From: Candidatus Nanoarchaeia archaeon
Lineage (GTDB): Archaea > Nanobdellota > Nanobdellia > Pacearchaeales > GW2011-AR1
NCBI GenBank assembly: GCA_028711165.1
Contig: JAQTST010000001.1
Location: 300,520-364,519 of the forward strand
Reading direction: 5' to 3'
DNA length: 64,000 nucleotides
Positions 4,792 through 35,610 of this stretch are shown one piece after another; positions within the stretch are counted from its first letter, which is position 1, and every line of letters begins with the position of its first letter. Under the pieces are notes generated by a model. It ran no database searches. It was not told where the DNA came from and saw only the letters and a list, made by a program, of their open reading frames with translations. The translations under genes and the position numbers were made by a program.

Positions 4792-4934
4792 AATAGCGCT
4801 CACTTCGTTCGCGGATTTTCTGCACTCAGAACCAAACTCCGTTAAGGTTCTTCGATAATGTAAATTGTTATCGTAGGTAAATTCTAAAAATTCATTACAA
4901 TAATCTTTAAAAATAAAAAATTAATGATGGCATT

Positions 4935-5234
4935 ATGAAAACTTTGAATGATATTATCTTATTCCCACAATCGTTAGAATTGTTAAATGCTTGTTTAGAT
5001 AATTCTTATGGAATTTCTCAAGGGAACGATATTAGATATTCTTGTGATAAAAACAAATCTTTTAGCCAGAATGAGCATGAGTTTAAGAAGATATTAAAAA
5101 AAGCAGGATTCGATGGGGTTATTAGATATTCAATTGAGAAAAAGTTAAATCTACCCGAATATGTGTTTAAAGGAATTCCTATAAATAAGAGAGAATATGT
5201 TGTGATTAAACTCCCAAAAGTTAAAGTTAAATAA
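4935..5234 (+). CDS. Hypothetical protein, paralog of 4465..4791
   Basis: Tandem paralog; conserved blocks as listed for 4465..4791. Confidence 0.55.
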   Translation: MKTLNDIILFPQSLELLNACLDNSYGISQGNDIRYSCDKNKSFSQNEHEFKKILKKAGFDGVIRYSIEKKLNLPEYVFKGIPINKREYVVIKLPKVKVK

Positions 5235-5235
5235 A

Positions 5236-5835
5236 TCAAATCTTCTCAGCAACAAAAATAATCATCTGTTTTGGGTCTTCTTTGAAAATAATTTTGAATC
5301 CTGCTTTTTCAAATAACTTGTAAATCTCTTTGTCGTCGTATAAATAATAATAACGCGCTCCTTTGTCGCGCCAATTTACAAATCGCTCTTTGCTCTTTGC
5401 ATTTCTGAATTTGTTTGACTGTTTGTTCCAGACTCCGACTTCGACTTGAGCGCCTTTTTTCAAAACGCGGAATAATTCTTTTACTGCTTTTTCCCTGTTC
5501 TTTTCCCCCTCGATGCAATGCAATGAGGAAATAAAAATTGCAGCGTCGAAAAAGTTGTCTTCAAAAGGCAGTTTTGTCAAATCAGCGACGACAAATTCAG
5601 CAGAAATCTTTTTCTTCTTTGCTTTTTCTTTCGCGAGTTCAATCATTTTTTCAGAGAAATCGACAAGATACATTTTTCCCTTTGAAATTTTCATTAAGTG
5701 CCTTCCTGCTCCGCTTCCCAAATCTAAAATATTTCCTTTTTTTCCTTTTAGAAATTCCTCGACGTGATGGGCGGGGTGGATTTTAAATTCGCTCCATTCT
5801 TCTGCGATGTTGTTCCAGACTTGGTGCTGATTCAT
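5236..5835 (-). CDS. Class I SAM-dependent methyltransferase
   Basis: Motif I ILDLGSGAGRH, an acidic post-I residue (LVDFS), and a typical ~200 aa Methyltransf_11-like layout. Confidence 0.8.
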   Translation of the reverse strand: MNQHQVWNNIAEEWSEFKIHPAHHVEEFLKGKKGNILDLGSGAGRHLMKISKGKMYLVDFSEKMIELAKEKAKKKKISAEFVVADLTKLPFEDNFFDAAIFISSLHCIEGEKNREKAVKELFRVLKKGAQVEVGVWNKQSNKFRNAKSKERFVNWRDKGARYYYLYDDKEIYKLFEKAGFKIIFKEDPKQMIIFVAEKI

Positions 5836-5906
5836 GGGGGAATAGAGAAATGGGGAATTTTAAAATTATTGATAAGTCTTATTCAACTGCAATTTCGCTC
5901 GTCTAT

Positions 5907-5922
5907 CCCCCCCCCCCCCCCC
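5907..5922. repeat. Homopolymeric C16 tract (G16 on the minus strand)
   Basis: Counted directly: 16 consecutive C. It is intergenic, about 42-57 nt upstream of the methyltransferase TATA-like box and 65 nt downstream of the HEPN-like gene stop. Confidence 0.95.
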
Positions 5923-5986
5923 AAGCCGAAAAAATTGTACTTCCGAAATTTCTTAAATTATCACCTCTTTTTTAGAAAATAAATCC

Positions 5987-6466
5987 TTAGACTTCTGTCT
6001 CTGACTCTAAAATTGACACAGCACCTTCCATTATTATTCCAACTAAATAGTCATAAATTCCCCCGTGTTCTTTGTGTAAATTCTCCCAATTCAATTCTTT
6101 AGTCTTTGGGATATATTTCTTTTCAGTTCCCTTAAGAGCAATATTATGAGCAAAAATATTTCTTATCTTGTAAAACCTATCAACCTTATTGTCAAAATCT
6201 TTCGGGAATTTTATTTTTGGATAATCCCTTTTAATAATCTCTCTTACAATCCTCAATTTAGTAATTATCCCTGCATTTTGGAAAAAATATTTATTAAATA
6301 TTCTAATTTTTTCTTCATCGATATTTTTTTCTGACCAAAATTTTTGTTTAAATCCAAAAAATCTATCTATTATATCTTCTGCAATATTGTCTATGTAAAT
6401 TGTGTTTATAATCACATCTGCTAAAAGTTCTCTTGGAGGTTCATCTGTCATTTTATTCCCCTTCAA
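5987..6466 (-). CDS. HEPN-like domain protein (RNxxxH motif)
   Basis: The C-terminal half carries FYKIRNIFAHN, an Rx4H motif in the helical context typical of HEPN/MtlR-like proteins. It overlaps the 3' end of the upstream gene by 14 nt. Confidence 0.45.
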   Translation of the reverse strand: MKGNKMTDEPPRELLADVIINTIYIDNIAEDIIDRFFGFKQKFWSEKNIDEEKIRIFNKYFFQNAGIITKLRIVREIIKRDYPKIKFPKDFDNKVDRFYKIRNIFAHNIALKGTEKKYIPKTKELNWENLHKEHGGIYDYLVGIIMEGAVSILESETEV

Positions 6467-7745
6467 ACTTCATCAACGTGAAAACTTTTTGATTTGCCTG
6501 TTCTAATTTTTCTCTCCCCTTGAGCTCTGGAAGTTCTATCGGGAAACAGCATTCAACAATTTCCCCTTGAAGTTGTGTGATTAATTTGCAGGAAGCAAGT
6601 GCTGTTCCGCCTGTTGCAATCAGATCGTCTACGAGAAGAATCTTCTGCTTTGGAGAAATTGCATCTTTGTGAATCTCGACGCTGTCAACTCCGTATTCCA
6701 AATTATAAGGTTCTGAAATTGTTTCGGCAGGAAGTTTTCCTGGTTTTCTGATAAGAACTAATCCTGTTCCTAATCTTCCTGCAAGCATTCCAGCGAGGAC
6801 AAATCCCCGTGATTCAATTCCTGCAACAGCGTCGATTGCAAAATCTTTGTATCTGTCATAAAGCATGTCAATTAATTTTCTCAACGCATCTTTGTCTTTC
6901 AACAAAGTTGTAATATCTCTGAACATAATTCCCTGCTTGGGGAAATTTGGAATTGTCCTTATGCTCTCTTTCAATTTTCTTATCTCTTCATCTCTTGAAA
7001 AAGAATTAATTGTTTCGAGCAAAACTTTTTTCACTCTCTCGGTGTTTTCCCTCATCACCATTCTGATAACTTCCCAGCTTGCGGGCTCCTCGTCTTCTTT
7101 CCAGCAGTCATAATCCGTCGACATCGCGATAACTCCGTAAGGAACTTCTGCCTCATTCGCGAGAATTGCTTCAGGTGCAATTGACATATTAATTACATCT
7201 GCACCAAACTGCTGAAACATCTTGCTCTCTGCTTTTGTCGAGAATCTCGGCCCTTCAATTGTAACGACTGTTCCTTTCTCATGATAAGCGTGTCCTAACT
7301 TATGACAGGATTCAATTAATTTTTTTCTTAAAATATTAGAGAAAGGTTCTGGCATCGGCGTGTGAACTGGACCAAATTCAAACTGCTCGAAGAAAGTAAG
7401 TTTTCTCTGCTTTGTGAAATCAATAAACTGGTCGAGAATTACAAAATCTCCGCGCCTGATATCTTCTCTTAGCGAACCGACTGCTGTCGTCGCTATTATG
7501 TATTTGCATCCCTCATTTTTCAGTGCGAAAATATTTGCTCGGTTATTTACCTGCGTCGGTGGAATCTCGTGTTTTACTCCGTGACGGGAAATTATGAAAA
7601 CATCGACGCCATTTATTCTTCCTGTTGTTATCGGAGAAGAAGGTTTTCCGAACGGCGTGTCAACTTCTTTCTGTTTAAAGTTTTCAAGAAGCTCGGGATT
7701 TTCCAGCCCAGAACCTCCAATCACACCTATTTTCAACGCTGCCAT
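6453..7745 (-). CDS. mtnP-apt: Fusion protein: 5'-methylthioadenosine phosphorylase (N-terminal) plus adenine phosphoribosyltransferase (C-terminal)
   Basis: The N-terminal ~260 aa is MTAP/PNP-like (KIGVIGGSGL..., ISRHG, ATTAVGSL). The C-terminal ~170 aa is APRT-like (FRDITTLL, VAGIESRGF, the PRPP loop LLVDDLIATGGT). I chose the ATG at 7745 (MAALKIGVIGGSG), not the track start at 7817, because a TATA-like box lies ~28 nt upstream of it. Confidence 0.8.
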   Translation of the reverse strand: MAALKIGVIGGSGLENPELLENFKQKEVDTPFGKPSSPITTGRINGVDVFIISRHGVKHEIPPTQVNNRANIFALKNEGCKYIIATTAVGSLREDIRRGDFVILDQFIDFTKQRKLTFFEQFEFGPVHTPMPEPFSNILRKKLIESCHKLGHAYHEKGTVVTIEGPRFSTKAESKMFQQFGADVINMSIAPEAILANEAEVPYGVIAMSTDYDCWKEDEEPASWEVIRMVMRENTERVKKVLLETINSFSRDEEIRKLKESIRTIPNFPKQGIMFRDITTLLKDKDALRKLIDMLYDRYKDFAIDAVAGIESRGFVLAGMLAGRLGTGLVLIRKPGKLPAETISEPYNLEYGVDSVEIHKDAISPKQKILLVDDLIATGGTALASCKLITQLQGEIVECCFPIELPELKGREKLEQANQKVFTLMKFEGE

Positions 7746-23444: not shown

Positions 23445-23513
23445 ATAATTTTCCTCGACAAAAAACATTTAAATAGTTACACTACCAACATTCTTTTAAT
23501 TTAGAGAGGTTGA

Positions 23514-26500
23514 ATGGTTTACAAGAGGTACATAAAAAAAGGGGGGAAAGTTTACGGTCCGTATTCTTATTCAAATCACAAGGAAAATGGAAAAGTTGTA
23601 ACAGAATATCTTGGCAAGGAGAGTAGTGTAAAAGAAAAAAAATTAAATTCCTCGTCGGTGATTTTTATTCCAATTCTCTTTCTATTAATTTTTGCTTTTA
23701 TGTTTTTTTATTTCAAGCCTACAATCTTTAGCTCTATCACGGGAAATGATATTCTCGACGGAAAAATAAGTTCCAGCTTCGAATTCGGTGACACTAAATA
23801 TGTAGAACTTCTTGTAAAAACTTCTGATAATGTTCCATCAAAAGCAGATAAAAAAGATTGGACTTCTGAGATGATTAAAACAGAACGGGCTTATTCCGGA
23901 AAACAAGGTTACATTGTAACTGCGAAACCAGAAGGCTGGCATTGGGGAGATTTGGAAAGAGATCCAAAAAGATATATGATTATAAAAATTCCAATATCTG
24001 AATTTAATGAATCCTGGTTTGAACCTGAGTATAATTATTCTGCTCCAATATACGCTCCTAATGATAAAGAAAAAATTATTGGATATGAAATTTTGACCGA
24101 GAGAAAATATAAAATTTCTGTTGAAGATGTTTTGACAAATCAGGAATTAAATGACCTGAAGAAAATTCCTTACAATGACAAAGAAGTAAGACCTGCAATT
24201 GAAAAGACAATAGAAGATATTTCTAATTTTATTATTTACAACGACTGGGAAAACCGTTCTGAAGATTTGAAACTTCACGGAAGCTCCGGAGTATTCAGCA
24301 TATGCGACGGAATAAATAATGCAACTCCCTGCAGTTATACTTCTCTTGCAGCATGGGAAACAGCAGAAGACGGAGATATCACTGCAACAGGGCCATGTAT
24401 TGCAAACATAACAGGGATATGGACTGTTAATGATACAACTCCATTAGCAATTGCTGGCTGGACAACTAATACAAGTTCTTATGTGAAAATTGTTACAGAA
24501 CCTCTTGCAAGACACGGGGGAAAATGGAATTGGACTGCATACAGACTTGTTACAGCAAATTCTGCAGGAATAACTTTCACAACAGTTAATAATGCATTTG
24601 TCGAGGGAATTCAAATTTATAACACTGGATATAATGGTGATAATCAGGGAGGAATTTTATTTAGAGACTCTACAGGATTCATGAATATCAGTGTTTCTCA
24701 TAATATAGTCAGAGGTACTCCAGGATCAGCCCAGCAATATAATGATGGGATACAGGCATACACAACTATCGCAGGTTCAAAAGTAAGCGTGTGGAATAAT
24801 ATAATTTATAATTATCAGGGAGGAACTGATGGTGGAAATTGTATAGCCAACTGGGATTCAACATCGACTTTTTATGCATATTCAAACACTGTTGTAAACT
24901 GCAGTAATGGTATTTCTAATAAAGGCGGGGCTATTCTTGCAAAAAATAATTTAGCAGAAGCCGGAACTTGTTACCTGGGAACATTTACTGCTGAATCAGA
25001 TTATAACGCATGTAATGGGACAGACACAACAGGAACAGGAACTCACAATCCGACAAGTATAAATTTTGTTTTTGCTGACAAAGCAAATGCCGATTTTCAT
25101 TTATCTGCAAGCGACACTGCAGTAATAAATAATGGAACTGATTTAAGTGCCGACGGCAATATTTCTTTTTCTGATGATATTGATTATGATTTGAGAACAG
25201 GAACATGGGATATTGGTGCTGATGAATATATTCCTATAAGAAGAATAAATCAAAATGGCAGTGTTGGTACGAATCCAGTTCATGAACTTTTGGTAAGTCT
25301 TTCTGGTTGTACTGCCGGAGATGTTATTATCGTCGGAGTTGGCCGCTGGGCAGAAACTATTGGTACCGCCCCTGCAACTGATCAATTTGTAGGAACTAAT
25401 ACGGGTTCTATTAGCTTAGCTGTCAATGATACTGGACAAAATAGTTATTCTGCACTGCTTTGGACTACTGTTGCTGCAGATGGTAATGTTATTATAAACT
25501 GGACTCTTCCCGGGACTGAAACCGCATATTTAGTTATCGGTATCGCAGAATATTCCGGAATGAATAACACTAATCCGGTTAACTCAACAAATCATACCAG
25601 CGGTGTAAGTACTAATGGTTTCACTGGAGAAGTTAATGTCGGAGAAGGGGAGTTATTAGTCGCTTTTATTGCAGGAGATTTATTTGCTCAAACAAGACCT
25701 GCTGGTTATGATTCAATTTATAATCAACCTTCTGCAAATAATAATTTACCTGCTGATATGTGTGACTATCTGCCTTCTGCTGGAGCCTATAATACTACAT
25801 GGACAAATGGTAATGATGACTGGACTGCTGTTGGAGCTGCATTTCAATCTATTGCTGAAATTGCTGCAGACAACCCTCCTGTTTCAATATTAAGTGCTCC
25901 ACCAAATAATAATATCAGTGATTTGGGAATTGTAACATTTCAATGTAATGCTACCGACGACTTTAATCTTGAGAATGTAACTCTCTACATCTGGAATTCT
26001 TCTAAAGGAATAATTCATACCAATTCTACTAATTGGAATGGAACAACTAATTCGACGACATTTACTTATAACTTTACATTTTACAATTCAACAGAATGGA
26101 ACTGTTTAGTTTATGATAATGCAAGCCAAGGTGCTTTTGCTTCAGCAAACAGGAGTTTGATTATTTCTTCTATTGATACTATTTATCCTGTCTTCTTTTC
26201 TTATTATGATAATAACGCCACATTAATTGATACTGGGACAGGATTATTTAACGTAAGCGTTAATAACACCAATGGAACTGTGTGGCTTGAAATTAATAAG
26301 GTTAATACTACTGCTTATAATGTAACTGCTAATGTTTACAATACCACCTACACATTTGCAACCGGAGGAAATTATGATTACAGATGGCACGCTTACGGAA
26401 ATGGAACAAATAATAATTATAATAGCAGTGAATGGAAAAGTTATACTGTTAATACAACTGTGCTCTCAGATACAACTCCACCAAATATTAATTTCTCTGC

Positions 26501-29500
26501 TCCAACTCCAGCGAATGCAAGCACCCAATCTGCTAATGCAATTTTTGTAAATGTCTCTGTGACTGACACAAGCAATGTTTCTGCATTTATTGATTTCAAC
26601 AGAAGTTTAGTTGCTTGGTATGGTTTTGATTCTTACAATGCGACAGGAATCTTTGATAATTCAAGCTACGAAAATTTTGGAGTAGTTACTGGTGCTACTT
26701 ATACCTCTTCTGGAGCGAGGGGGGGAGCGTTTAGTTTTAATGGAGTTGACGGTCAGAATTCTATACTTACTTCTAATAATATTAATCTTACATCTAATTT
26801 TACAATTTCTGTATGGGCAAAGAGATATGCTGGAAATATATTGTATCAAACTGCAGGATCGGGAATACTTTGGACTTATAATGGGGGAGCCTTTTATGAT
26901 GATGTTTCTAACTGGCAGTCTGGGACAGCTTTAGCTTCTGGTGTTTGGTATCATCTTGTCTTGGTAGGAAATGGAACAAATATTAAAATGTATCAAAATG
27001 GTGTTCTTGATGCAACTATAATACAAAATAATATCGGATATAATAGTCAACCAATTTATATTGGTTCACATCCCTGGTCAAATACTTTTAATGGTTCTCT
27101 TGATGAATTAATGATTTTCAACAGAATATTCTCTCTTGAGGAAATCAATGCAAGTTATAATGCAGGAGTTTACAAATTATACCGCAACTTTACTGATTTG
27201 TCGAATGCAACTTACAATTTTACTGCTTACGCCATTGACCTTGCGGGAAATATAAATAAAACAGGACAAAGAGAAGTTACAATAAATACCAGTTATAGTG
27301 CTCCTACAGGAGATACAACTCCCCCAATAATTAATTTCTCTGCTCCAACTCCAGCGAATGCAAGCACTCAATCAGCAAATGCAATTTATGTGAATGTCTC
27401 TGTGAGTGACGCAAATAACGTTTCTGCATTTATTGATTTCAACAGGAGTCTTGCTGAATGGTATAATCTGAATGACAGAAATTCAACAGCTGTTTTTGAT
27501 AATTCCAGTTATGAAAAGTTTGGAATAATTAGCGGGGCAGTTTATACTTCTTCAGGAGCAAGAGGAGGAGCTTTTACATTCGACGGAGTTGATGATTATA
27601 TCAATGTTCAGAATGGGAGTTATTATTATGATGTCTGTAAGAATGGTTGTACTGTCAGTGCCTGGGTTAACGCAGAACCTACTTCTGAAAATGATGAAAT
27701 GTATGTTTTTAGCAGGTATTATTGGGACAATGCTGTCATGACTCTTTCTTATGACAAATTTAAACAGATTTCTTTTGGAATCGATGATGATTTAACAATC
27801 GGTGGGGCTTGTACTGCATCGTCGGGAGTTCTTCTCACTTTTAATGCCTGGCAACATCTTGTAGGAATTTATAATGGTTCAGATACTTTAATTTATCTAA
27901 ATGGATTACTTCTTGATACCACTTCCTGTGGATTTAGTTCTCTTAACGAAGCAGCATGGCGTGCAACAGGAAAGTTCAACATTGGGAATAATGGGGATGG
28001 GGGTAATACTGTGAATGGAACAATAGATGAAGTAATGATTTTCAACAGAGTTTTATCCTCGGAAGAAATTAATGCCTCTTATAACGCAGGAGTTTACAAA
28101 TTATACCGCAACTTTACTGATTTAAGCAACGGAAATCATACTTTCCGAGCCTGGGCAATCGATGCTTCAGGAAATATAAATAAAACTGATTTAAGATTAG
28201 TTAATATAACGACGTTAGAAGCTCCTGCAGGAGATACAACTCCGCCAGATATTAATTTCACGTATCCAACTCCGGCGAATGCAAGCACTCAATCAGCGAA
28301 TGCAATTTATGTGAATGTTTCTGTAAGCGATGCGAACAATGTTTCTGCATTTATTGATTTCAACAGAACTCTACGATTATGGTTTAATTTTGAATCATGG
28401 GATGGCGGTGCTACTGTTGTTGATAATTCAACTTATGGAGAAGATGGAACAGTTACCGGCGGAACAATTGATGGCAATGGAATAAGGGGACATGCAATTA
28501 ATTTTTCAGGAGGAGATTCTGACGGAATTGATGTTACTTCAATAGATGTTAATCCTTACAGAAATTTTACTGTTTCTTTTTGGGTTAAGAAAGTGTATGA
28601 TAGTGCTGCTTCTAATTTAGAATTAATAGACAAGAGAGATAATCCTAGAACATTTCATCTTTATGCTTCTACCGGAGATGCAGTAGTTTTTCAAGTGTAT
28701 AATACCAGTGAAGAGATTCAAGGAGATATTGGAACAGGAGATAATAGTCTTCAGGATAAAAATTGGCATCATGTTGTTGCCGGCTATAATGGTACTACTT
28801 TTATTTATCTTGATGGTGTTTTTAAACAGGCAGGGGTTATCACCGGAGAAATAAATACTGGTTCGGGGAATATGCAGATAGGTAAAAATTTCATTAATGG
28901 AGCTGAATTTAATGGTTCTATCGACGAGGTAATGATTTTCTCCAGAGCATTAACCTCCGAAGAAATTAGTGCAACTTACAATGCGGGAGTTTACAATTTA
29001 TACCGCAACTTTACTGATTTGATAAACGGAAATTATACTTACCGAGCCTGGGCAATCGACGCTTCAGGAAATATAAATAAGACAGAACCAAGAACAGTAA
29101 ATGTTAGCGTTGCAGGAGATACAACTCCGCCGACGATTTCAGTGATTTATCCTAATGACGGAACTAACTCATCAAACAAATTGATTAATGTTAATTATAC
29201 TGCAAAGGATGAAACTGCAATAAGTGCGTGCTGGTATTCAAATGATACTTTCACTTACAATTATTCTCTTGCAGACTGCGGGACAAACATAACAGGAGTT
29301 ACCTGGGCAGAGGGAATTCATAATGTGACAATTTGGGTAAATGATACTGCGGGGAATAATAATTCTGCTTCTGTCAGATTCACAATTGATTCAATAGCTC
29401 CTTCAATTTCAATTCTTTATCCAGCTAACAATTCAAATCATTCAAACAATCTTATCGACGTTAATTACACCTTTTCAGATTTGAATGCTCAATCCTGCTG

Positions 29501-32500
29501 GTACTCAAATGATACTTTTACTTACAACTATACATTAACTGACTGCGGAACAAATATCACCGACGTAACTTGGGCAGAAGGTATTCACAATGTAACTGTC
29601 TGGGGAAATGATTCTTTTAACAATGTAAATTTTTCAAATGTAATTTTTACAATTGATACAATCAAACCAGGCATCTCAATCCTAACACCAACCAGCGGAA
29701 CTAACTCATCAAATAATTTGCTAGATGTAAATTACACAACTTCTGATATTAACATTCAATCATGCTGGTATTCAAATGATACTTTTACTTACAACTACAC
29801 ATTAACCAATTGTGGAACTAATATCACTGATGTAATCTGGAGCGAGGGGATACACAACGTTACCGTCTGGGGAAATGACTCTTTTAATAATGAAAATTTC
29901 TCAAATGTAATCTTCACCATTGATTCAATAAAACCAGGCATTTCAATCCTAACACCAACCACTGGAACAAATTCATCAAATAATTTGCTAGATGTAAACT
30001 ACTCAGCATCGGATATTAACATTCAATCCTGCTGGTATTCTAACGACACTTTCACTTACAATTATACATTAACTGACTGCGGAACAAATATTACAGATGT
30101 AACTTGGGCAGATGGAATTCACAACGTTACAGTCTGGGGAAATGATTCTTTTAACAATGTAAATTTTTCAAATGTAATTTTCACAATTGATGCAACTGCC
30201 CCAAATTTAACTTTTTTTAGCCAACTACCCCCAGATATTTCGACTTCAAACTTATTCGGTGAAATGTTAGAAATTAATTATACTATAAATGATGTTACAA
30301 GTTCTTTAAACACCTCGACGATAAAATTGTATTATAAGTCAAATTCTACAACCAGCGACGTAAATTATTATCAGAATGGAACTGCTTATTCTGGCTTTTT
30401 TTCGAAAGATTACGATTCTAATTATTCAGAATATTTTAAATTTTCAGCTGATGATAATAAAATTTACATTGGAACTTACAACCTTGATGAATCATATATA
30501 GAGACTGCTCCGAAAACAGCTTATGACCTTGACCTTGTTGCGGAATATGTCAAGATTCAATTAATCAATGTTACTAATCAATACCCCTATAATATTTTTG
30601 AAATTTATGCACAAAATCAGACAGCGACTTCAAACACCTTAAGAATTTATTATTGTAATTCTTCTTATACTACTGGCAATCCTGTCGGGAATGCCGGATG
30701 TACTGATTTTTATAACCTTGGGGCAGCTTCTCCATTCAATCACACTCACAGCGAGAACTCAAAACATCATGCAATTCCTTTAGCTATTAATGTAACCAGC
30801 GGAATGGTTGGGAATGTTTATGTTACAAATACTTCTTATTTCTTATTGAGGGGAAGGACAGGAGTTAATGCGTGGAATGTTTATTATACGACGACTCCTT
30901 CAAGAGCTGCAGCAATGCAGACTTCAACAAATAATGGTGTAGCATGGACTGAAGTTTCAGGAACTGTCGACGCTCATTTACATCAATATAATGGAACAGC
31001 ATCTTTCTGGTACTATGTTTGTGCAAATGATACTTTAGGAAATCAAAATTGCTCTTCTGTGAGACAGGATTTATTTAACTTGTCCGGATTGCCTCCTTCT
31101 GCTCCAAATATTTACAGCCCGTCACAGGCGACATACGCTGGAACAATCAATATAAATTATACTGCTTCATTATCTCTTAACAGTTATCCTATTGTAATTT
31201 ATAACATTTCTTTAGCAAATGTATCAGATGAAAGTTTTATTTCTGCAATAAAAACAAATAATTCGGCTAACCTGAGTTATGCCTGGGACAGCACAGGAAT
31301 CGTCGAGGGGCAGTACATAATAAGAGTTGAAGCATGTGATAATCAGAATCAATGTTCTTTTGGTTATTCTGAAAATTTTTCAATTGATAATGCAAAACCA
31401 GGCATTTCAATACTCTCTCCTGTTGAAGGAACTAATACTACAAATAACCAGATAGACATTAATTACACAGCGTCGGATATCAACCTTCAATCCTGCTGGT
31501 ATTCTAACGACACTTTCACTTACAATTATTCTCTTGCAAATTGTGGAACAAATATCACTGACGTAACTTGGGCAGAAGGAATTCACAATGTAACTGTCTG
31601 GGCAAATGATACTGTAAATAATCAAAACTGGACTTCTGTTAGATTTACAATTGATTCAATAAAACCAGGCATTTCAATCTTAACACCAACCACTGGAACA
31701 AACTCATCAAATAATTTGTTAGATGTAAATTACACCTTTTCAGATTTGAATGCTCAATCCTGCTGGTACTCAAATGACACCTTTACTTACAACTATACAT
31801 TAACTGACTGCGGAACTAATATCACCGACGTAACTTGGAGTGATGGAATTCACAATGTAACTGTCTGGGGAAATGATTCTTTCAATAATGAAAATTTTTC
31901 AAATGTAATCTTCACCATTGATACAATACCGCCTTATTTTACAAATCTTGCAACTCAAGAGATATATTCTACACAAAAATTAGAATATGATATAAATGCT
32001 AAAGATGATGGCATTGGATTGCAATCTTTTGCACTTTATAATTGGACTGCTAATTTTAGCATAGTTGCAACTACTGGAGTTTTGACAAATGCTTCTCCTT
32101 TGGCTAGCGGGAATTATTATCTTAATCTTTCTGTAAATGATACTTTGGGGAATACAAATTATTCTATATTGCTGATTAATGTAACTTCAGATACAATTCC
32201 GCCAAATGTAGAAATTATCTCTCCGACAGCGACGACATATACTACTTCAGCTATCTCTTTTGAATCAAGGACGAATGAAAATTCTTCCTGTAATTACAGT
32301 TTAGATGCTGGTATAACTAATTTAAGTTTGACGCCAAATTCAACACAGACAGGACATACCTCGTCGGCAACACTTTCAAATGCTGATTATGTTTCTTATT
32401 TTTACTGTTCAGATTCTGCAGGAAATCAAAATAATTCTGAGAATATCAATTTCACTGTAAACGTTGCTGCAGTAGTTCCTCCTGTTGTTGAGGAAAAAGG

Positions 32501-33290
32501 GGGAGGGGGCGGCGGAGCAATAACAAAAGCACCTGCTGCTCAATTTACCGTCAATGTAGAAAGCATTGAGAGGACTCTTATAATAAATGATATGGAATTC
32601 GGGCAGGTATGGGTTAATAATAATGGAAATTCCCGTCAGACTTTTAATATAAAAGTTGAAGTATTGAATTCATCCATTATACCTGAAGAGTATTCTATAA
32701 GCATTGCTCCGAAGAGCTCGGACAAATTTGATTTCAAAATAAATTCTCCAAGCGTCGCAGGAATCTATACTGGAAAAATAATTATCTCCAGCGGATATCA
32801 GCAGAAAGAGGTTCTTGTTACTCTGAACATCAAAACAGAAAAAAGTCTTTATGATGTAACAATCACAATTCCAAAATCAATGAAAACTATTGAACCTTCT
32901 GAAACTTTATCGTCGCAGATAGACCTTCTTCAGATGGGGAGAAAAGAAAAGATGGATGTTACTGTAACTTACATTATCAAAGATTTTAACGGGAAAATTT
33001 ATCTTTCTGAAACAGAAACTATCGCAGTTGAAAATCAGAAAACTCTTGAAAAAGATTTTAATACAGAAGAATTCCCCGAAGGAGATTATGTCTTGGGAGT
33101 TGAATTAATTTATCCCGACGGAATTGCTGTTGCAAGTTCTCATTTTAAAGTCATGGGAAAAATTCCTTCCCCAATTGACTTTCCGACGATTATCGTTGCC
33201 TGTCTGACTGCCTTAATTTTAGCAGGAATTTATTTTGTGATAAGAAGATATAAGAAAACAATTAAACTCGCGAGGAAAAGGAAGAAATAA
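23514..33290 (+). CDS. Giant (3258 aa) membrane-anchored surface protein: N-terminal TM, beta-helix-like region, 3 LamG modules, 6 near-identical ~89-aa Ig-like repeats, C-terminal two-domain module plus TM anchor
   Basis: One uninterrupted ORF with an SD (GAGAGG) upstream. N-terminal TM VIFIPILFLLIFAFMFFYF and C-terminal TM IIVACLTALILAGIYFVI followed by a basic tail. N-x-S/T sequons are very dense (8 per 89-aa repeat, by my count). Confidence 0.85.
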   Translation: MVYKRYIKKGGKVYGPYSYSNHKENGKVVTEYLGKESSVKEKKLNSSSVIFIPILFLLIFAFMFFYFKPTIFSSITGNDILDGKISSSFEFGDTKYVELLVKTSDNVPSKADKKDWTSEMIKTERAYSGKQGYIVTAKPEGWHWGDLERDPKRYMIIKIPISEFNESWFEPEYNYSAPIYAPNDKEKIIGYEILTERKYKISVEDVLTNQELNDLKKIPYNDKEVRPAIEKTIEDISNFIIYNDWENRSEDLKLHGSSGVFSICDGINNATPCSYTSLAAWETAEDGDITATGPCIANITGIWTVNDTTPLAIAGWTTNTSSYVKIVTEPLARHGGKWNWTAYRLVTANSAGITFTTVNNAFVEGIQIYNTGYNGDNQGGILFRDSTGFMNISVSHNIVRGTPGSAQQYNDGIQAYTTIAGSKVSVWNNIIYNYQGGTDGGNCIANWDSTSTFYAYSNTVVNCSNGISNKGGAILAKNNLAEAGTCYLGTFTAESDYNACNGTDTTGTGTHNPTSINFVFADKANADFHLSASDTAVINNGTDLSADGNISFSDDIDYDLRTGTWDIGADEYIPIRRINQNGSVGTNPVHELLVSLSGCTAGDVIIVGVGRWAETIGTAPATDQFVGTNTGSISLAVNDTGQNSYSALLWTTVAADGNVIINWTLPGTETAYLVIGIAEYSGMNNTNPVNSTNHTSGVSTNGFTGEVNVGEGELLVAFIAGDLFAQTRPAGYDSIYNQPSANNNLPADMCDYLPSAGAYNTTWTNGNDDWTAVGAAFQSIAEIAADNPPVSILSAPPNNNISDLGIVTFQCNATDDFNLENVTLYIWNSSKGIIHTNSTNWNGTTNSTTFTYNFTFYNSTEWNCLVYDNASQGAFASANRSLIISSIDTIYPVFFSYYDNNATLIDTGTGLFNVSVNNTNGTVWLEINKVNTTAYNVTANVYNTTYTFATGGNYDYRWHAYGNGTNNNYNSSEWKSYTVNTTVLSDTTPPNINFSAPTPANASTQSANAIFVNVSVTDTSNVSAFIDFNRSLVAWYGFDSYNATGIFDNSSYENFGVVTGATYTSSGARGGAFSFNGVDGQNSILTSNNINLTSNFTISVWAKRYAGNILYQTAGSGILWTYNGGAFYDDVSNWQSGTALASGVWYHLVLVGNGTNIKMYQNGVLDATIIQNNIGYNSQPIYIGSHPWSNTFNGSLDELMIFNRIFSLEEINASYNAGVYKLYRNFTDLSNATYNFTAYAIDLAGNINKTGQREVTINTSYSAPTGDTTPPIINFSAPTPANASTQSANAIYVNVSVSDANNVSAFIDFNRSLAEWYNLNDRNSTAVFDNSSYEKFGIISGAVYTSSGARGGAFTFDGVDDYINVQNGSYYYDVCKNGCTVSAWVNAEPTSENDEMYVFSRYYWDNAVMTLSYDKFKQISFGIDDDLTIGGACTASSGVLLTFNAWQHLVGIYNGSDTLIYLNGLLLDTTSCGFSSLNEAAWRATGKFNIGNNGDGGNTVNGTIDEVMIFNRVLSSEEINASYNAGVYKLYRNFTDLSNGNHTFRAWAIDASGNINKTDLRLVNITTLEAPAGDTTPPDINFTYPTPANASTQSANAIYVNVSVSDANNVSAFIDFNRTLRLWFNFESWDGGATVVDNSTYGEDGTVTGGTIDGNGIRGHAINFSGGDSDGIDVTSIDVNPYRNFTVSFWVKKVYDSAASNLELIDKRDNPRTFHLYASTGDAVVFQVYNTSEEIQGDIGTGDNSLQDKNWHHVVAGYNGTTFIYLDGVFKQAGVITGEINTGSGNMQIGKNFINGAEFNGSIDEVMIFSRALTSEEISATYNAGVYNLYRNFTDLINGNYTYRAWAIDASGNINKTEPRTVNVSVAGDTTPPTISVIYPNDGTNSSNKLINVNYTAKDETAISACWYSNDTFTYNYSLADCGTNITGVTWAEGIHNVTIWVNDTAGNNNSASVRFTIDSIAPSISILYPANNSNHSNNLIDVNYTFSDLNAQSCWYSNDTFTYNYTLTDCGTNITDVTWAEGIHNVTVWGNDSFNNVNFSNVIFTIDTIKPGISILTPTSGTNSSNNLLDVNYTTSDINIQSCWYSNDTFTYNYTLTNCGTNITDVIWSEGIHNVTVWGNDSFNNENFSNVIFTIDSIKPGISILTPTTGTNSSNNLLDVNYSASDINIQSCWYSNDTFTYNYTLTDCGTNITDVTWADGIHNVTVWGNDSFNNVNFSNVIFTIDATAPNLTFFSQLPPDISTSNLFGEMLEINYTINDVTSSLNTSTIKLYYKSNSTTSDVNYYQNGTAYSGFFSKDYDSNYSEYFKFSADDNKIYIGTYNLDESYIETAPKTAYDLDLVAEYVKIQLINVTNQYPYNIFEIYAQNQTATSNTLRIYYCNSSYTTGNPVGNAGCTDFYNLGAASPFNHTHSENSKHHAIPLAINVTSGMVGNVYVTNTSYFLLRGRTGVNAWNVYYTTTPSRAAAMQTSTNNGVAWTEVSGTVDAHLHQYNGTASFWYYVCANDTLGNQNCSSVRQDLFNLSGLPPSAPNIYSPSQATYAGTININYTASLSLNSYPIVIYNISLANVSDESFISAIKTNNSANLSYAWDSTGIVEGQYIIRVEACDNQNQCSFGYSENFSIDNAKPGISILSPVEGTNTTNNQIDINYTASDINLQSCWYSNDTFTYNYSLANCGTNITDVTWAEGIHNVTVWANDTVNNQNWTSVRFTIDSIKPGISILTPTTGTNSSNNLLDVNYTFSDLNAQSCWYSNDTFTYNYTLTDCGTNITDVTWSDGIHNVTVWGNDSFNNENFSNVIFTIDTIPPYFTNLATQEIYSTQKLEYDINAKDDGIGLQSFALYNWTANFSIVATTGVLTNASPLASGNYYLNLSVNDTLGNTNYSILLINVTSDTIPPNVEIISPTATTYTTSAISFESRTNENSSCNYSLDAGITNLSLTPNSTQTGHTSSATLSNADYVSYFYCSDSAGNQNNSENINFTVNVAAVVPPVVEEKGGGGGGAITKAPAAQFTVNVESIERTLIINDMEFGQVWVNNNGNSRQTFNIKVEVLNSSIIPEEYSISIAPKSSDKFDFKINSPSVAGIYTGKIIISSGYQQKEVLVTLNIKTEKSLYDVTITIPKSMKTIEPSETLSSQIDLLQMGRKEKMDVTVTYIIKDFNGKIYLSETETIAVENQKTLEKDFNTEEFPEGDYVLGVELIYPDGIAVASSHFKVMGKIPSPIDFPTIIVACLTALILAGIYFVIRRYKKTIKLARKRKK
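26469..29117 (+). repeat. Three tandem ~281-307-aa modules (DTTPPxINF..PTPANASTQSANAI.VNVSV..., then a LamG domain, then YRNFTDL...AIDxxGNINKT)
   Basis: In-frame module starts at 26469, 27312 and 28233; the next DTTPP is at 29118. Long identical DNA stretches occur at the module boundaries. Confidence 0.85.
29136..30206 (+). repeat. Four tandem 267-270-nt coding repeats (ISIL.P..GTNSSNNLLDVNYT.SD.N.QSCWYSNDTFTYNYTLTDCGTNITDVTW..GIHNVTVWGNDSFNN.NFSNVIFTID)
   Basis: Unit starts at 29136, 29406, 29673 and 29940, all in frame. Confidence 0.9.
31404..31937 (+). repeat. Two further copies of the same 267-nt coding repeat
   Basis: Unit starts at 31404 and 31671. Unit 6 is nearly identical at DNA level to unit 2 (29406..29672). 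Confidence 0.9.
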
Positions 33291-33314: not shown

Positions 33315-34496
33315 ATGCAAAAGAAGAGGTGGTTGATAATTTGCGCAGTTATAGTTCTGCTTTCAGCAGCCGGCTTTTTTGTATACTCGCAATTTTTGAC
33401 AGAAAAAGATTTTACGAAAACCAGTCTTATAAAAGTAAACATTCCCACCGACGGAGAATATGAGATAAGCGTAAAAATTACAAACCCCGAGCAGACTGAG
33501 CAGTTAATAAATTTTTCAATTAACAATTTTAATAATATTGCAACTTTCTCTGATTCTGAATTCTATTTACAGCCAGGAGAAAGCCAGAATCTAATTATTT
33601 CTTTCAAAGATAACATTCACACCCCAGAAGTTTATGTCGGGAAACTGATTATCCGGGACTCTGTTTCAAAAGAAGAAATACCTGTTATCCTCGGTGTTGA
33701 AGATTCAAATTCTGCATTTGCAATTATTCCTTCTGTCCTCCCCAAATATGATTCTGTTTATCCCGGTGATAAATTTGGAATTGATTTAAAGGTTTTTGAT
33801 TTGAAAAACTCAAATGTTCCGACGGTAAAAGCAAATTATGAAATAAAAAATTTAGACGGCGAAACAATTTTAAACGGAGAAACTGAAATTGCCGTCGATG
33901 ATGGCGGTAAAACTGAGATTATAAACATTCCAAAAGACTGGGGGACAGGAGATTATGTCTTCGTTATAACTATAAATTATAAAGATACGATAAGTTTTTC
34001 GAGTTATCTTTTTTCTATTTCCAGTTTATACAAGAAAAATTTTCTTTCTGAAATGAATTTTATTTTAATGCTTGTTATTTTATTCGTTGTAATTATCATC
34101 GGGCTTGTAATATATTTTATCACTGCAAGAGATTCTCTTTTTATCCGACTCCGACGACAACAATCTCAGGAGATAAGAAGAAATCTCAAATGCATTGCTT
34201 ATTCAAGAAGAGCTATCAGAAAATCCAGAGAGAAACCTGCAAAGAAAAAAGAGAAAATCAGAAGATTAAACAGAGTAAAGAAAAAAATTATCAGGAGAAT
34301 AAGAGAAAAACAAAGAAGACAGAAAAGAGAAATTTCCCGACTTAGAAAAATAAAAGCAAAACGAAATACTTTAGACAGGAAACTCCAAGGCTGGAAAAAA
34401 CAGGGATATAAAATGTACGAAGCTAAAGAGGAATTACACGGCACAAACATCCAGAAACAGCTTGGAGACTGGAAAAAACAAGGTTACAAGATTTAA
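33315..34496 (+). CDS. Membrane protein paralogous to the C-terminal module of the giant protein, with a long Lys/Arg-rich cytoplasmic tail
   Basis: N-terminal TM/signal, two beta-sandwich-like domains collinear with giant-protein residues ~2990-3200 (e.g. GDYVFVITINY vs GDYVLGVELIY), TM FILMLVILFVVIIIGLVIYFI, and a basic tail with two WKKQGYK motifs. Confidence 0.65.
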   Translation: MQKKRWLIICAVIVLLSAAGFFVYSQFLTEKDFTKTSLIKVNIPTDGEYEISVKITNPEQTEQLINFSINNFNNIATFSDSEFYLQPGESQNLIISFKDNIHTPEVYVGKLIIRDSVSKEEIPVILGVEDSNSAFAIIPSVLPKYDSVYPGDKFGIDLKVFDLKNSNVPTVKANYEIKNLDGETILNGETEIAVDDGGKTEIINIPKDWGTGDYVFVITINYKDTISFSSYLFSISSLYKKNFLSEMNFILMLVILFVVIIIGLVIYFITARDSLFIRLRRQQSQEIRRNLKCIAYSRRAIRKSREKPAKKKEKIRRLNRVKKKIIRRIREKQRRQKREISRLRKIKAKRNTLDRKLQGWKKQGYKMYEAKEELHGTNIQKQLGDWKKQGYKI

Positions 34497-34538: not shown

Positions 34539-34587
34539 ATGACTGAAACAAGTTCAGTACAAATAAAAAGAGGACTTTTATATAATG
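34539..34587 (+). repeat. Leader repeat copy D (diverged): ATGACTGAAACAAGTTCAGTACAAATAAAAAGAGGACTTTTATATAATG
   Basis: Aligns with copy A (ATGACAGAAC-TTCGTTCAGCACAAATAAAAATTCAAGGAGAATTTTCATAATG). It ends in the SD (GAGG) and ATG of the Lys/Arg-rich protein gene. Confidence 0.55.
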
Positions 34588-35610
34588 GTGAAAAAAAGGA
34601 TTTCTAGAAAGAGAAGAACTAGCCAAAGAGCCAGTGCTCTGCCGTCGACTAAAAAAGAATTTGAAACTTTTGCATTTGGCGTCGAGAGATTGAAAGAACT
34701 TAAACGGGAATTGAACTCTTTAAACACAAAAGGATTCTCTCAGGAAGCACAGGAAATAAGAGCAAAATTAAAAATTGTTTCAGAAGTTCCAAACATTGAA
34801 AGACTGCTCAAAAGATTAAAATTGAAAATAAAAGGGAAACACCCTTCTCCTAAAGAAAAAAGAAAAGATAAAATACAAAGTAAAGTAAAAAATAAAGTAA
34901 AAAGTAAAATACCTGATAAAATACAAAGTAGAATCAAGAATAGAACCGAAGAGATTCACGACGATATTGAAGATATAAAAGAAGACCTTGAACAAAACCT
35001 TCCAAGTATAAAATCTGAAATTAAAAAACTTGGGAAGAAAGTTGAAAATATGGGGGGCCAAAATTTATCTTTCAAAGTGACTCCTGTCGGTGTAAGAATA
35101 AACACAAGAAAAAAGAGAAAGAATAAAGTCAAAAGAAAAAAAGCAAAAACGCCTAAGATAAAAAAAAGAAGGATAAGACACAGAAAAAGAAAAGTAAGGC
35201 AAAAGAAAGTGAAAGTCAAAAAGGAAGTAAAGAAGAAAAGAAGAAGCAGGAAAAATAAAGTCAGAAGAAAAAAAGCAAAAATCACAAAATCAAAACCTGC
35301 TAAGAAAGTGAAATCTCCTGAAACAAAAAAAAGGAAAAAGAGGAAAGTAAGAAAACATAAAAGAAAAATTTCACGAGTAAAATCAAAGCCAAAGAGGCGA
35401 GTCCGAAAACACAGAAAAACTTCTAAACCTGATAAAGAACAGGAAATCAAAAGTAAAATTCTAAGAATGCTGGCGAGTAAGAAAGGATTGCATCTGAAAG
35501 AAATTAAAAAAAGACTGAAGAAAATGGGAATTAGAAAAAGTAAAAGAGCGATACTCAAGTACATAAAGAGCATGGAAAAAGAAGGAAAAATAAAGGAAAG
35601 GAAATATTAA
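34585..35610 (+). CDS. Extremely Lys/Arg-rich protein with C-terminal winged-helix-like domain (possible nucleic-acid/chromatin-binding protein)
   Basis: 341 aa with long KKRKKRKVRKHKRK-type tracts. The C-terminus ILRMLASKKGLHLKEIKKRLKKMGIRKSKRAILKYIKSMEKEGKI resembles a wHTH. Confidence 0.55.
   Translation: MVKKRISRKRRTSQRASALPSTKKEFETFAFGVERLKELKRELNSLNTKGFSQEAQEIRAKLKIVSEVPNIERLLKRLKLKIKGKHPSPKEKRKDKIQSKVKNKVKSKIPDKIQSRIKNRTEEIHDDIEDIKEDLEQNLPSIKSEIKKLGKKVENMGGQNLSFKVTPVGVRINTRKKRKNKVKRKKAKTPKIKKRRIRHRKRKVRQKKVKVKKEVKKKRRSRKNKVRRKKAKITKSKPAKKVKSPETKKRKKRKVRKHKRKISRVKSKPKRRVRKHRKTSKPDKEQEIKSKILRMLASKKGLHLKEIKKRLKKMGIRKSKRAILKYIKSMEKEGKIKERKY

What the first reader, a model, noticed from the sequence alone, without database searches (positions are those of the whole stretch)
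23514..33290. 3258-aa giant surface protein with near-identical internal DNA repeats and extreme N-glycosylation sequon density
A single ORF encodes the following, in order:
- an N-terminal TM helix
- a beta-helix-like region
- three ~281-307-aa LamG modules (26469..29117)
- six ~89-aa Ig-like repeats in two blocks (29136..30206 and 31404..31937), interrupted by a ~400-aa unique insert
- two further beta-sandwich-like domains
- a Gly6 linker
- a two-domain module and a C-terminal TM anchor

The repeats are close to identical at the nucleotide level; for example, unit 2 resembles unit 6. This implies recent expansion or concerted evolution and gives scope for length variation. Each 89-aa repeat holds 8 N-x-S/T sequons and a conserved Cys pair, which suggests a heavily glycosylated, disulfide-stabilised stalk presenting lectin domains. 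Such a protein is a plausible host-attachment adhesin.
Basis: partly seen in the sequence, partly recalled or inferred. Interest (0 to 1): 0.6.

Follow-up and report, generated by a model that had tools for sequence, protein, structure and literature searches.

The report
Giant sugar-coated archaeal surface protein
This is a real 3,258-residue, membrane-anchored, probably heavily glycosylated surface protein of a tiny symbiont-type (DPANN) archaeon. It is an ordinary member of a known class of likely attachment proteins, and its internal repeats are old and diverged, not near-identical as first reported.

Summary
The ORF 23514..33290 (+) is intact and encodes 3,258 aa. An identical copy lies in a second public assembly.
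- a basic N-terminal motif plus a TM helix
- a conserved alpha/beta domain and a right-handed beta-helix
- three LamG modules
- six 89-aa Big_13-type Ig units in two blocks
- a Gly6 linker, a tandem beta-sandwich module, a TM helix and a K/R tail

Sequon density is real. The ectodomain has 173 sequons against 74±7 after shuffling, and the density is the highest in the genome. An AglB (STT3 with WWDYG) is present.

The headline claim fails. The Ig units are only 66-84% identical in DNA (dS 0.67-2.5, dN/dS 0.06-0.21). They are at least as old as the split from a congener whose GyrB is 93% identical. There is therefore no sign of recent expansion or concerted evolution, and little risk of assembly collapse.

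The "unique" insert is a conserved, undescribed module shared with at least 9 other giant proteins.

The gene sits in a fixed slot upstream of gyrB. Most congeners carry a ~350-450-aa anchor protein there, and only one has a differently built 4,319-aa giant.

Verdict: a new member of the known DPANN giant LamG/Ig surface-glycoprotein class. Adhesion is plausible but untested.

The parts
23460..23509 (+). Putative archaeal promoter and ribosome-binding site: A-rich BRE-like run 23460-23465, TATA-like TTTAAATA 23468-23475, GAGAGG 23504-23509 four nt before the ATG
   Evidence: Read directly from the sequence. This is inference by eye; no tool models archaeal promoters, and the sigma-70 scan is not relevant.
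23514..23657 (+). N-terminal basic cytoplasmic motif, aa 1-48 (MVYKRYIKKGGKVYGPYSYSNHKENGKVVTEYLGK...); no Pfam or NCBIfam family
   Evidence: It has 11 K+R against 4 D+E. There is no family hit at E<=1. It is 70% identical in the positional orthologue. It occurs in 24 of 41 related genomes, 1-3 copies each, on ORFs of 373-4,319 aa.
23658..23717 (+). TM helix 1 (aa 49-68), a probable signal anchor
   Evidence: Kyte-Doolittle 19-residue window maximum of 2.84.
23718..24299 (+). Membrane-proximal conserved alpha/beta domain 'A' (aa 69-262); charged, sequon-poor, undescribed
   Evidence: 1.5 sequons per 100 aa; 13% K+R and 18% D+E. AF2 pLDDT is about 80-95 from aa 87. It is conserved together with the beta-helix at the N-terminus of 500-1,150-aa proteins at 43-48% identity. 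It is 33% identical to the start of P0003.
24300..25238 (+). Right-handed parallel beta-helix (aa 263-575), ending in the ...DFHL...WDIGADEY cap motif
   Evidence: 3,610 library hits. The ~280-aa module is repeated up to 19 times in proteins of up to 7,731 aa. 4 of 16 aligned homologues hit PF13229 Beta_helix, best E 9e-18. The AF2 strand ladder has pLDDT 80-94. Foldseek top hits are GH136, PL6, Pel9A, pectin methylesterase and tailspikes, with probability 0.9-0.99 and best E 1.6e-3.
25239..25868 (+). Domain 'C' (aa 576-785), fold unknown
   Evidence: No Pfam or PDB match. Its AF2 confidence is below 50, and only one listed library protein (P0132) covers it.
25869..26468 (+). Two Ig-like domains (aa 786-985), the most sequon-dense part (10.5 per 100 aa)
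   Evidence: Weak Big_7 match, E 0.0019. Shared with 20 of the 50 related giants. Sequon counts.
26469..29129 (+). Three LamG (Laminin_G_3, ConA-like) modules: aa 986-1266, 1267-1573 and 1574-1872. Each appears nested inside an Ig-like unit.
   Evidence: PF13385, E 9.5e-54, 3 stretches. 45-48% identity to each other. DNA repeat families D3 and D4 are 73-84% identical. The C-terminal flanks align with the Ig-unit F-G strands in families D5 and D6.
29136..30206 (+). Ig-like (Big_13) units 1-4, 89 aa each
   Evidence: TRF finds period 267, 3.6 copies, 77% matches. PF19077, E 4e-12. Pairwise DNA identity is 66-84% and protein identity 65-89%. dS is 0.67-2.5.
30207..31400 (+). Conserved ~400-aa all-beta module (YYCNSSY...NHTHS...VDAHLHQY...WYYVCANDT) ending in a diverged Ig unit; no described family
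   Evidence: 30-51% identity over its full length to 9 other giants. No Pfam or PDB match. The AF2 core, aa 2324-2494, has pLDDT 74-94. The last 140 aa match the Ig units at 31-34% identity.
31404..31937 (+). Ig-like (Big_13) units 5-6
31938..32483 (+). Two further Ig-like beta-sandwich domains (aa 2809-2990)
   Evidence: Big_13, E 2.5e-5, 2 stretches; weak Cadherin and Big_3 matches. Shared with 38 of the 50 related giants.
32499..32516 (+). Gly6 linker (aa 2996-3001)
   Evidence: A poly-Gly run of at least 5 is present in 35 of 51 family members.
32541..33179 (+). Conserved membrane-proximal stalk: tandem beta-sandwich module (aa 3010-3222); sequon-free and charged
   Evidence: AF2 pLDDT 88-97, two beta-sandwiches. 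Foldseek: RbmA (TM 0.52), WxLIP, ASH/PapD-like pairs, E 2e-10 to 1e-8. 0.5 sequons per 100 aa. Found in 29 of 41 related genomes, mostly in free-standing 350-420-aa proteins.
33180..33287 (+). TM helix 2 (aa 3223-3243) and K/R cytoplasmic tail RRYKKTIKLARKRKK
   Evidence: Hydropathy maximum 2.63; the tail is 67% K+R. Modelled as one long helix.
33315..34496 (+). Partner gene 25 nt downstream: 393 aa with an N-terminal TM, a paralogue of the stalk module, a TM helix and a ~110-aa basic tail with two WKKQGYK motifs
   Evidence: BLASTP to the giant's C-terminal module: 24% identity over 195 aa, E 1e-11. It holds the same position in L003, G018, G024, G003 and G006.

Best explanation
The gene encodes a cell-surface fibre of a small-genome DPANN (Pacearchaeota-like) archaeon.

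Shown here:
- The frame is intact.
- The N-terminus is basic and is followed by a TM helix.
- The ectodomain is about 3,150 aa. It holds a conserved alpha/beta domain, a right-handed beta-helix, three LamG jelly-rolls and at least 12 Ig-like sandwiches.
- A poly-Gly hinge follows, then a tandem beta-sandwich stalk, a second TM helix and a K/R tail.
- N-x-S/T sequons are 2.3-fold over-represented. They are confined to the distal ectodomain; the two membrane-proximal modules are almost sequon-free.
- The genome encodes an AglB oligosaccharyltransferase.

Inferred:
- Both termini are cytoplasmic by the positive-inside rule. The protein is therefore held in the membrane at both ends, or at the C-terminus only if the N-terminal anchor is cleaved.
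- AglB coats the distal part with N-glycans.
- The Ig units act as spacers. The LamG and beta-helix modules bind glycans on another cell, most likely the host or partner on which such archaea depend.
- The stalk probably pairs with the paralogous partner protein encoded 25 nt downstream.

Evolution: the gene occupies a fixed slot upstream of gyrB. Its anchor ends are conserved, but the ectodomain differs radically between close relatives. This points to module exchange or insertion under diversifying pressure. It does not point to repeat slippage.
For: - ORF and domains.
- Topology signals.
- Beta-helix.
- Stalk module plus TM.
- Sequon excess (z = 14, reverse-motif control 88 against 173, top of the proteome).
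- AglB: a 924-aa protein with STT3 plus the STT3/PglB core and WWDYG at residue 625.
- Neighbouring genes carry class III (pilin-type) leaders and LamG domains. A prepilin peptidase is present.
- An identical 13.8-kb locus lies in a second assembly, GCA_028714745.1.
- Syntenic locus in GCA_027364705.1: GyrB and GyrA are 93% identical. By contrast the giant is 33-47% identical at its ends, is rearranged inside, and lacks aa 263-768.
- In the 11 relatives examined, the protein carrying the stalk module is only 246-456 aa; gyrB lies downstream in the six loci where it could be seen.
- 50 related giants come from Pacearchaeota or Woesearchaeota where named.
- Published view that LamG or giant surface proteins of DPANN mediate host interaction: PMC5498576, PMC7443923, PMC10266531.
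Against:
- The host is unknown.
- Beta-helix structural neighbours are mostly carbohydrate-active enzymes, so an enzymatic role is not excluded.
- Foldseek E-values for the beta-helix are weak (at best 1.6e-3).
- Double anchoring rests only on hydropathy and charge. The N-terminal anchor could be cleaved.
- Pairing with the partner is inferred from paralogy and adjacency only.
Confidence: 0.68

Rival explanations
1. It is a surface-tethered glycan-processing enzyme, or enzyme plus carbohydrate-binding array. The beta-helix would cleave host or environmental polysaccharide. The LamG and Ig modules would act as CBM-like binders and spacers, feeding a metabolically poor cell.
For: All confident structural neighbours of aa 263-575 are carbohydrate-active beta-helix enzymes or phage tailspike depolymerases.
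Against: There is no sequence match to any CAZyme family or PDB enzyme. No catalytic residues could be mapped. The same ~280-aa beta-helix module is reiterated up to 19 times in other giants, which fits a structural or binding repeat better than an active site. The positional orthologue lacks it altogether.
Confidence: 0.15
2. It is a structural envelope component, such as an S-layer or S-layer-tethering glycoprotein, and not an adhesin.
For: It shares N-glycosylation sequons, a C-terminal TM anchor and Ig-like domains with archaeal S-layer glycoproteins. It is the largest gene in the genome at 1.5% of its length.
Against: Most congeners carry only a 350-450-aa protein in the same slot, so the giant ectodomain is dispensable within the genus. 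Its composition differs wholesale from a relative with 93%-identical GyrB. There is no PGF-CTERM-type sorting signal at the C-terminus (sequence).
Confidence: 0.12
3. The long ORF is an assembly artefact caused by collapsed or expanded repeats.
For: The gene contains internal repeats, and no reads could be examined.
Against: The repeats are only 66-84% identical, with exact runs of at most 50 nt, so ordinary short reads place them uniquely. The frame is open over 9.8 kb. A second public assembly with a different contig (447 kb against 623 kb) carries the identical 13,777 nt.
Confidence: 0.03

Closest known systems
Unnamed class of giant LamG / Ig-like / beta-helix surface proteins of DPANN archaea (Woesearchaeota, Pacearchaeota, Micrarchaeota, Nanohaloarchaeota; e.g. 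PMC5498576, PMC7443923)
   Same: Tiny genome; LamG (PF13385) and Ig-like modules; membrane anchor; linkage to pilin-like genes; presumed role in contact with host glycans. The 50 database relatives of 1.9-5.5 kaa share modules at 26-52% identity and have a similar sequon density (median 5.7 per 100 aa).
   Different: No full-length orthologue exists; best coverage is 44%. This member combines the YGPY-type N-terminal anchor, a beta-helix head absent from the 50 relatives found first, and the tandem-sandwich stalk.
SPEARE giant proteins of Nanohaloarchaeota (Hamm et al. 2019; re-analysed in PMC10266531)
   Same: Giant, membrane-anchored, Ig-rich extracellular proteins of DPANN archaea, thought to mediate host attachment.
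   Different: SPEARE proteins are 6-9 kaa and continue after the TM helix into a cytoplasmic VirB4/HerA-like ATPase. Here the cytoplasmic tail is 15 residues and no ATPase domain is present.
Bacterial fibrillar adhesins (stalk of tandem Ig-like repeats, adhesive domains and a cell anchor), including RTX/Bap-type giant adhesins
   Same: Same design logic: anchor, repetitive Ig-like stalk, and distal lectin or beta-helix binding modules.
   Different: Many bacterial giants carry near-identical DNA repeats that expand and contract; here the units are at dS 0.67-2.5. The anchoring differs (TM helices, not sortase, T1SS or outer membrane). The N-glycan coat is made through AglB.
Archaeal S-layer glycoproteins (e.g. 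Haloferax volcanii)
   Same: AglB-dependent N-glycosylation of an Ig-rich, C-terminally anchored surface protein.
   Different: About 4 times larger, variable within a genus, no PGF-CTERM signal, and a second N-terminal anchor.
WxL-interacting protein (WxLIP) and Vibrio RbmA tandem Ig/FnIII pairs
   Same: Closest solved folds to the C-terminal stalk module.
   Different: Fold resemblance only (12-14% identity). There is no evidence of shared ancestry or of a WxL-type partner.

Membership tests
DPANN giant LamG/Ig surface glycoproteins (unnamed class) | Encoded in a small DPANN-type archaeal genome | tested here: met
   The genome is 637 kb and 88.6% complete. The window contains an archaeal Kae1 gene. 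Named relatives are Candidatus Pacearchaeota or Woesearchaeota.
DPANN giant LamG/Ig surface glycoproteins (unnamed class) | LamG / ConA-like lectin domains plus tandem Ig-like domains in one extracellular polypeptide | tested here: met
   PF13385 three times, E 9.5e-54; PF19077, E 4e-12.
DPANN giant LamG/Ig surface glycoproteins (unnamed class) | Membrane anchor with a cytoplasmic basic tail | tested here: met
   Hydropathy and charge; AF2 models a long helix.
DPANN giant LamG/Ig surface glycoproteins (unnamed class) | Actual surface exposure, N-glycosylation and host binding | not testable with these tools
   Only sequon statistics and the presence of AglB are available.
SPEARE proteins | Cytoplasmic VirB4/HerA-type ATPase domain C-terminal to the TM helix | tested here: not met
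   The C-terminal tail is 15 aa. There is no ATPase family in the Pfam or NCBIfam scans.
Repeat-expansion adhesins with near-identical tandem DNA repeats (RTX/Bap type) | Tandem units more than ~95% identical in DNA, allowing slippage or recombination | tested here: not met
   DNA identity is 66-84%, the longest exact run is 50 nt, and dS is 0.67-2.5.
Right-handed parallel beta-helix (pectin-lyase-like fold), aa 263-575 | Beta-helix fold | tested here: met
   Homologues hit PF13229. The AF2 strand ladder has pLDDT 80-94. The first eight Foldseek hits are all beta-helices, though E is at best 1.6e-3.
Right-handed parallel beta-helix (pectin-lyase-like fold), aa 263-575 | Catalytic residues of a lyase, hydrolase or esterase family | tested here: inconclusive
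   No sequence-level match to any CAZyme or PDB chain. Residues could not be mapped.
Archaeal S-layer glycoprotein with PGF-CTERM/archaeosortase anchoring | PGF-CTERM tripartite signal at the C-terminus | tested here: not met
   The C-terminus reads ...SPIDFPTIIVACLTALILAGIYFVIRRYKKTIKLARKRKK, with no PGF motif.
AglB-dependent N-glycoproteins | Genome encodes AglB with the WWDYG catalytic motif | tested here: met
   G000 C3:2027-4801, 924 aa: PF02516 (E 6.7e-12) plus PF21436, with WWDYG at residue 625.

The most novel reading that the evidence does not exclude
The slot upstream of gyrB may hold an undescribed 'anchor cassette' system of this archaeal family. In its basic form it would be a pair of paralogous single-pass proteins, each with a tandem beta-sandwich stalk. 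In some lineages the first gene has been inflated from about 370 aa to 3,000-4,300 aa. This happened by insertion of shuffled glycan-binding modules between a conserved cytoplasmic YGPY motif plus TM anchor and the stalk. The result would be a doubly anchored giant loop, whose specificity is swapped by recombination at the conserved ends and not by repeat slippage or a retroelement.
Probability: 0.25. Interest if true: 0.55.

Novelty: new member of a known kind. Interest (0 to 1): 0.3.

Why it matters
Giant glycosylated LamG/Ig proteins are the leading candidates for how host-dependent DPANN archaea recognise and hold their partners, yet none from Pacearchaeota has been studied experimentally. 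This locus gives a clean natural comparison. It lies in a conserved genomic frame (GyrB 93% identical), in which the occupant ranges from a ~370-aa anchor protein to 3-4-kaa giants with different module sets. That defines which parts are the constant anchor or stalk and which are the variable, presumably specificity-determining head. It also shows that variation here is modular, not repeat-driven. As a single gene, however, it is an ordinary representative of a class seen in many such genomes.

Tried and rejected
- Sequence searches of the N-terminal 731 aa, the insert and the C-terminal module against PDB chains, singly and as profiles, gave nothing significant.
- Pfam on isolated segments gave nothing for aa 1-800 or for the insert, even at E<=1.
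- NCBIfam gave only sub-threshold TafC and OmpL47 fragments that overlap the LamG modules.
- A diversity-generating retroelement as the source of variation is rejected: the genome has no reverse transcriptase.
- SPEARE membership is rejected: there is no cytoplasmic ATPase.
- The second STT3 hit (C3:8423-10240) is a PMT_2-type GT-C glycosyltransferase without WWDYG. It is not a second AglB.
- The AF2 model of aa 2225-3258 is uninformative for Ig units 5-6 and the two following sandwiches. Their pLDDT is below 40 because no alignment rows covered them.
- The fold of the insert could not be searched separately.
- A resemblance of the N-terminal motif to bacterial KxYKxGKxW, YSIRK or ESPR extended signal peptides is only recalled from memory. 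The NCBIfam scan did not detect it.
Full report
OBSERVATION

The window contains one uninterrupted ORF at 23514..33290 (+) of 3,258 codons. It is the largest gene of a 637-kb, five-contig, 88.6%-complete genome and takes 1.5% of its length. GC content across the gene (0.34-0.37) matches the rest of the window. An A-rich/TTTAAATA element lies about 40 nt upstream of the ATG, and GAGAGG lies 4 nt upstream (read by eye). The next gene starts 25 nt after the stop.

The exact protein is also encoded in a second public assembly. GCA_028714745.1, contig JAQTLT010000001.1 (447 kb), carries the identical 13,777 nt of gene plus flanks.

ANATOMY

Only two hydrophobic segments exist, aa 49-68 and 3223-3243. 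The first follows a 48-aa K/R-rich N-terminus. The second precedes the tail RRYKKTIKLARKRKK. By the positive-inside rule both ends are cytoplasmic, which is an inference.

Between the two TM segments, in order:

1. aa 69-262: a charged, sequon-poor alpha/beta domain.
2. aa 263-575: a right-handed beta-helix.
   - The 731-aa N-terminal piece has 3,610 relatives in the 1.8-billion-protein library.
   - The ~280-aa helix module occurs up to 19 times per protein.
   - The domain-plus-helix unit heads 500-1,150-aa proteins at 43-48% identity.
   - 4 of 16 aligned relatives hit PF13229.
   - The AF2 model has pLDDT 80-95 over aa 87-574.
   - Its Foldseek neighbours are GH136 lacto-N-biosidases, a PL6 lyase, Pel9A, pectin methylesterases and phage tailspikes (probability 0.9-0.99, E at best 1.6e-3).
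3. aa 576-785: fold unknown.
4. aa 786-985: two Ig-like domains.
5. aa 986-1872: three LamG modules (PF13385, E 9.5e-54; 45-48% identical to each other).
6. Four 89-aa Big_13 units.
7. A ~400-aa module.
8. Two more Big_13 units.
9. Two further Ig-like sandwiches.
10. Gly6 at aa 2996-3001.
11. aa 3010-3222: a tandem beta-sandwich module, modelled at pLDDT 88-97 and followed by one long helix. Its nearest solved folds are generic tandem Ig/FnIII pairs (RbmA with TM 0.52, WxLIP, ASH/PapD-like).

THE REPEATS ARE NOT NEAR-IDENTICAL

- Properly registered, the six 267-nt units are 66-84% identical in DNA and 65-89% in protein. Units 2 and 6 are 82% identical in DNA and 87% in protein.
- They differ at 18-32 synonymous codons out of 89. 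The longest exact shared run is 50 nt.
- Nei-Gojobori estimates give dS of 0.67-2.5 and dN/dS of 0.06-0.21.
- For scale, gyrB compared between this genome and its closest available congener has dS of 0.91.
- The duplications are therefore at least as old as that speciation, and the units are kept by purifying selection on the protein.
- There is no evidence for recent expansion, concerted evolution or slippage-prone DNA. By the same token, there is little scope for assembly collapse.

THE 'UNIQUE INSERT' IS A CONSERVED MODULE

It aligns over its whole length at 30-51% identity with segments of nine other giant proteins. It shares the motifs YYCNSSY, NHTHS, VDAHLHQY and WYYVCANDT with those proteins. 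Its last ~140 aa are a diverged Ig unit. It has no Pfam or PDB relative.

GLYCOSYLATION

- The ectodomain has 173 N-x-S/T sequons. Shuffled sequence gives 74±7 (z = 14), and the reverse control motif occurs 88 times.
- 46% of all Asn residues lie in sequons.
- Density is 5.3 per 100 aa against a proteome median of 0.46, the highest in the genome. It is typical of the family, whose median is 5.7.
- Sequons are concentrated in the distal ectodomain (3-10.5 per 100 aa).
- They are nearly absent from the two membrane-proximal modules: 1.5 per 100 aa for aa 69-262 and 0.5 for aa 3021-3222.
- The genome encodes a 924-aa AglB with the STT3 and STT3/PglB-core domains and WWDYG at residue 625.
- The second STT3-like hit is a PMT_2 GT-C enzyme.

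CONTEXT AND RELATIVES

Local context:
- Genes 19633, 21066 and 35652 start with MNxK(K/R)GLSTII..., the archaeal class III (pilin-type) leader. Two of them carry LamG domains.
- A prepilin peptidase is present elsewhere in the genome.
- The gene directly downstream (33315..34496, 393 aa) is a paralogue of the giant's stalk module plus TM, with E 1e-11.

Database relatives:
- A database search found 50 giants of 1.9-5.5 kaa, labelled Pacearchaeota or Woesearchaeota where named. They share modules at 26-52% identity over only 6-44% of the query. This is a mosaic family with no full-length orthologue.

The closest congener:
- In GCA_027364705.1 the locus is syntenic: pilin-like gene, giant, partner, K-rich protein, gyrB, gyrA.
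- GyrB and GyrA are 93% identical between the two genomes.
- By contrast the 4,319-aa giant there is 33% identical over aa 1-262 and 46% identical in the stalk. It is rearranged in between and lacks aa 263-768.
- The partner is 40% identical and the K-rich protein 48%.

Wider relatives:
- In the 11 further relatives examined, the protein carrying the stalk module is only 246-456 aa. gyrB lies downstream in the six loci where it could be seen.
- In four of the 11 loci it is followed by the partner, and in two of them also by the K-rich gene.
- One genome has a split version: a 1,215-aa ectodomain ORF overlapping a 372-aa anchor ORF.
- The stalk module occurs in 29 of 41 related genomes.
- The N-terminal YGPY motif plus TM occurs in 24 of 41, on ORFs of 373-4,319 aa.
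- The number of CWYS-type Ig units is 6 here, 7 in the positional orthologue, and 0-19 across the family.
- The genome has no reverse transcriptase, so a DGR does not drive the variation.

INTERPRETATION

The best-supported reading is a membrane-anchored, AglB-glycosylated modular surface fibre. Ig units act as spacers. LamG and beta-helix modules act as glycan binders. A conserved, unglycosylated tandem-sandwich stalk probably pairs with the adjacent paralogue.

The fibre most likely serves attachment to another cell. This matches the published view of LamG or giant surface proteins in DPANN archaea (PMC5498576, PMC7443923, PMC10266531). That function is inferred, not shown.

Rivals are a tethered glycan-degrading enzyme (the beta-helix neighbours are CAZymes), an envelope or S-layer component, and an assembly artefact.

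It is not a SPEARE protein, because it has no cytoplasmic ATPase. It is not a slippage-type repeat adhesin.

Earlier AI notes from this scan describe the same class in at least 46 genomes, as well as the 4,319-aa orthologous locus. I used them as leads and re-derived the synteny, the partner paralogy and the topology independently.

VERDICT

This is a new member of a known kind, of modest interest. The most useful additions are two: the demonstration that the repeats are ancient, and the picture of a conserved genomic slot whose occupant ranges from a small anchor protein to differently built giants.

Noticed in passing
window 33315-34496; P0023 C-terminal tail: The partner protein's basic cytoplasmic tail carries two WKKQGYK motifs. 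The same W-K-K-x-G-Y-D/K motif is repeated in the cytoplasmic tail of an unrelated 5,484-aa giant (P0023: KWTKGGYDTG, EEWKKKGYDVDS, KKWKEGGYDVDS). This suggests a shared, undescribed cytoplasmic docking motif.
   Followed up: no
G000 C3:533-1858 and C3:2027-4801 (outside the window): A 441-aa paralogue of the giant's C-terminal stalk module (30% identity over 108 aa, E 5e-6) lies directly upstream of the AglB oligosaccharyltransferase gene.
   Followed up: partly
P0013, P0019, P0022, P0026, P0028 (relatives): Several related giant surface proteins are interrupted by intein-like inserts (CYD.ETEI...; PF14890 in the precomputed hits for three of them: P0013, P0022 and P0026). Inteins in extracellular adhesin-like genes are unusual. 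The window's gene has none.
   Followed up: no
window 26469-29129: Each LamG module seems to be a ConA-like jelly-roll inserted into an Ig-like unit. The segment after each LamG (e.g. 28131-28196, ...HTFRAWAIDASGNINKT) aligns in DNA repeat families D5 and D6 with the last strands of the 89-aa Ig units. The segment before each LamG resembles their first strands.
   Followed up: partly
L010 (G013:C1) 1749-5396 and 5389-6507: In one congener the slot holds a 1,215-aa sequon-rich Ig-containing ORF that overlaps by 8 nt a 372-aa ORF with the stalk module. This is either a split version of the giant-plus-anchor fusion or a frameshifted one.
   Followed up: partly
window 34585-35610: The 341-aa Lys/Arg-rich protein after the partner gene keeps its position relative to the anchor pair in three relatives. 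It is 48% identical in L003, and partial matches of 35% and 51% occur in G018 and G024. It therefore appears to belong to the locus and is not there by chance.
   Followed up: partly
P0007, P0016, P0004, P0002 (relatives): Some family members carry cytoplasmic tails of several hundred residues after the C-terminal TM helix. These hold many K/R-rich repeats containing FFHD.FGMFKT. The window's protein has only a 15-aa tail.
   Followed up: no
window 23721-25238 (aa 70-575): The alpha/beta domain plus beta-helix unit has 3,610 relatives and no Pfam model for its first domain. Invariant residues in the 16-sequence alignment include E148, D150, R197, E211 and the H255-G-S-x-G-x-F261 motif (numbering of the full protein). 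These could mark a binding or catalytic site.
   Followed up: partly
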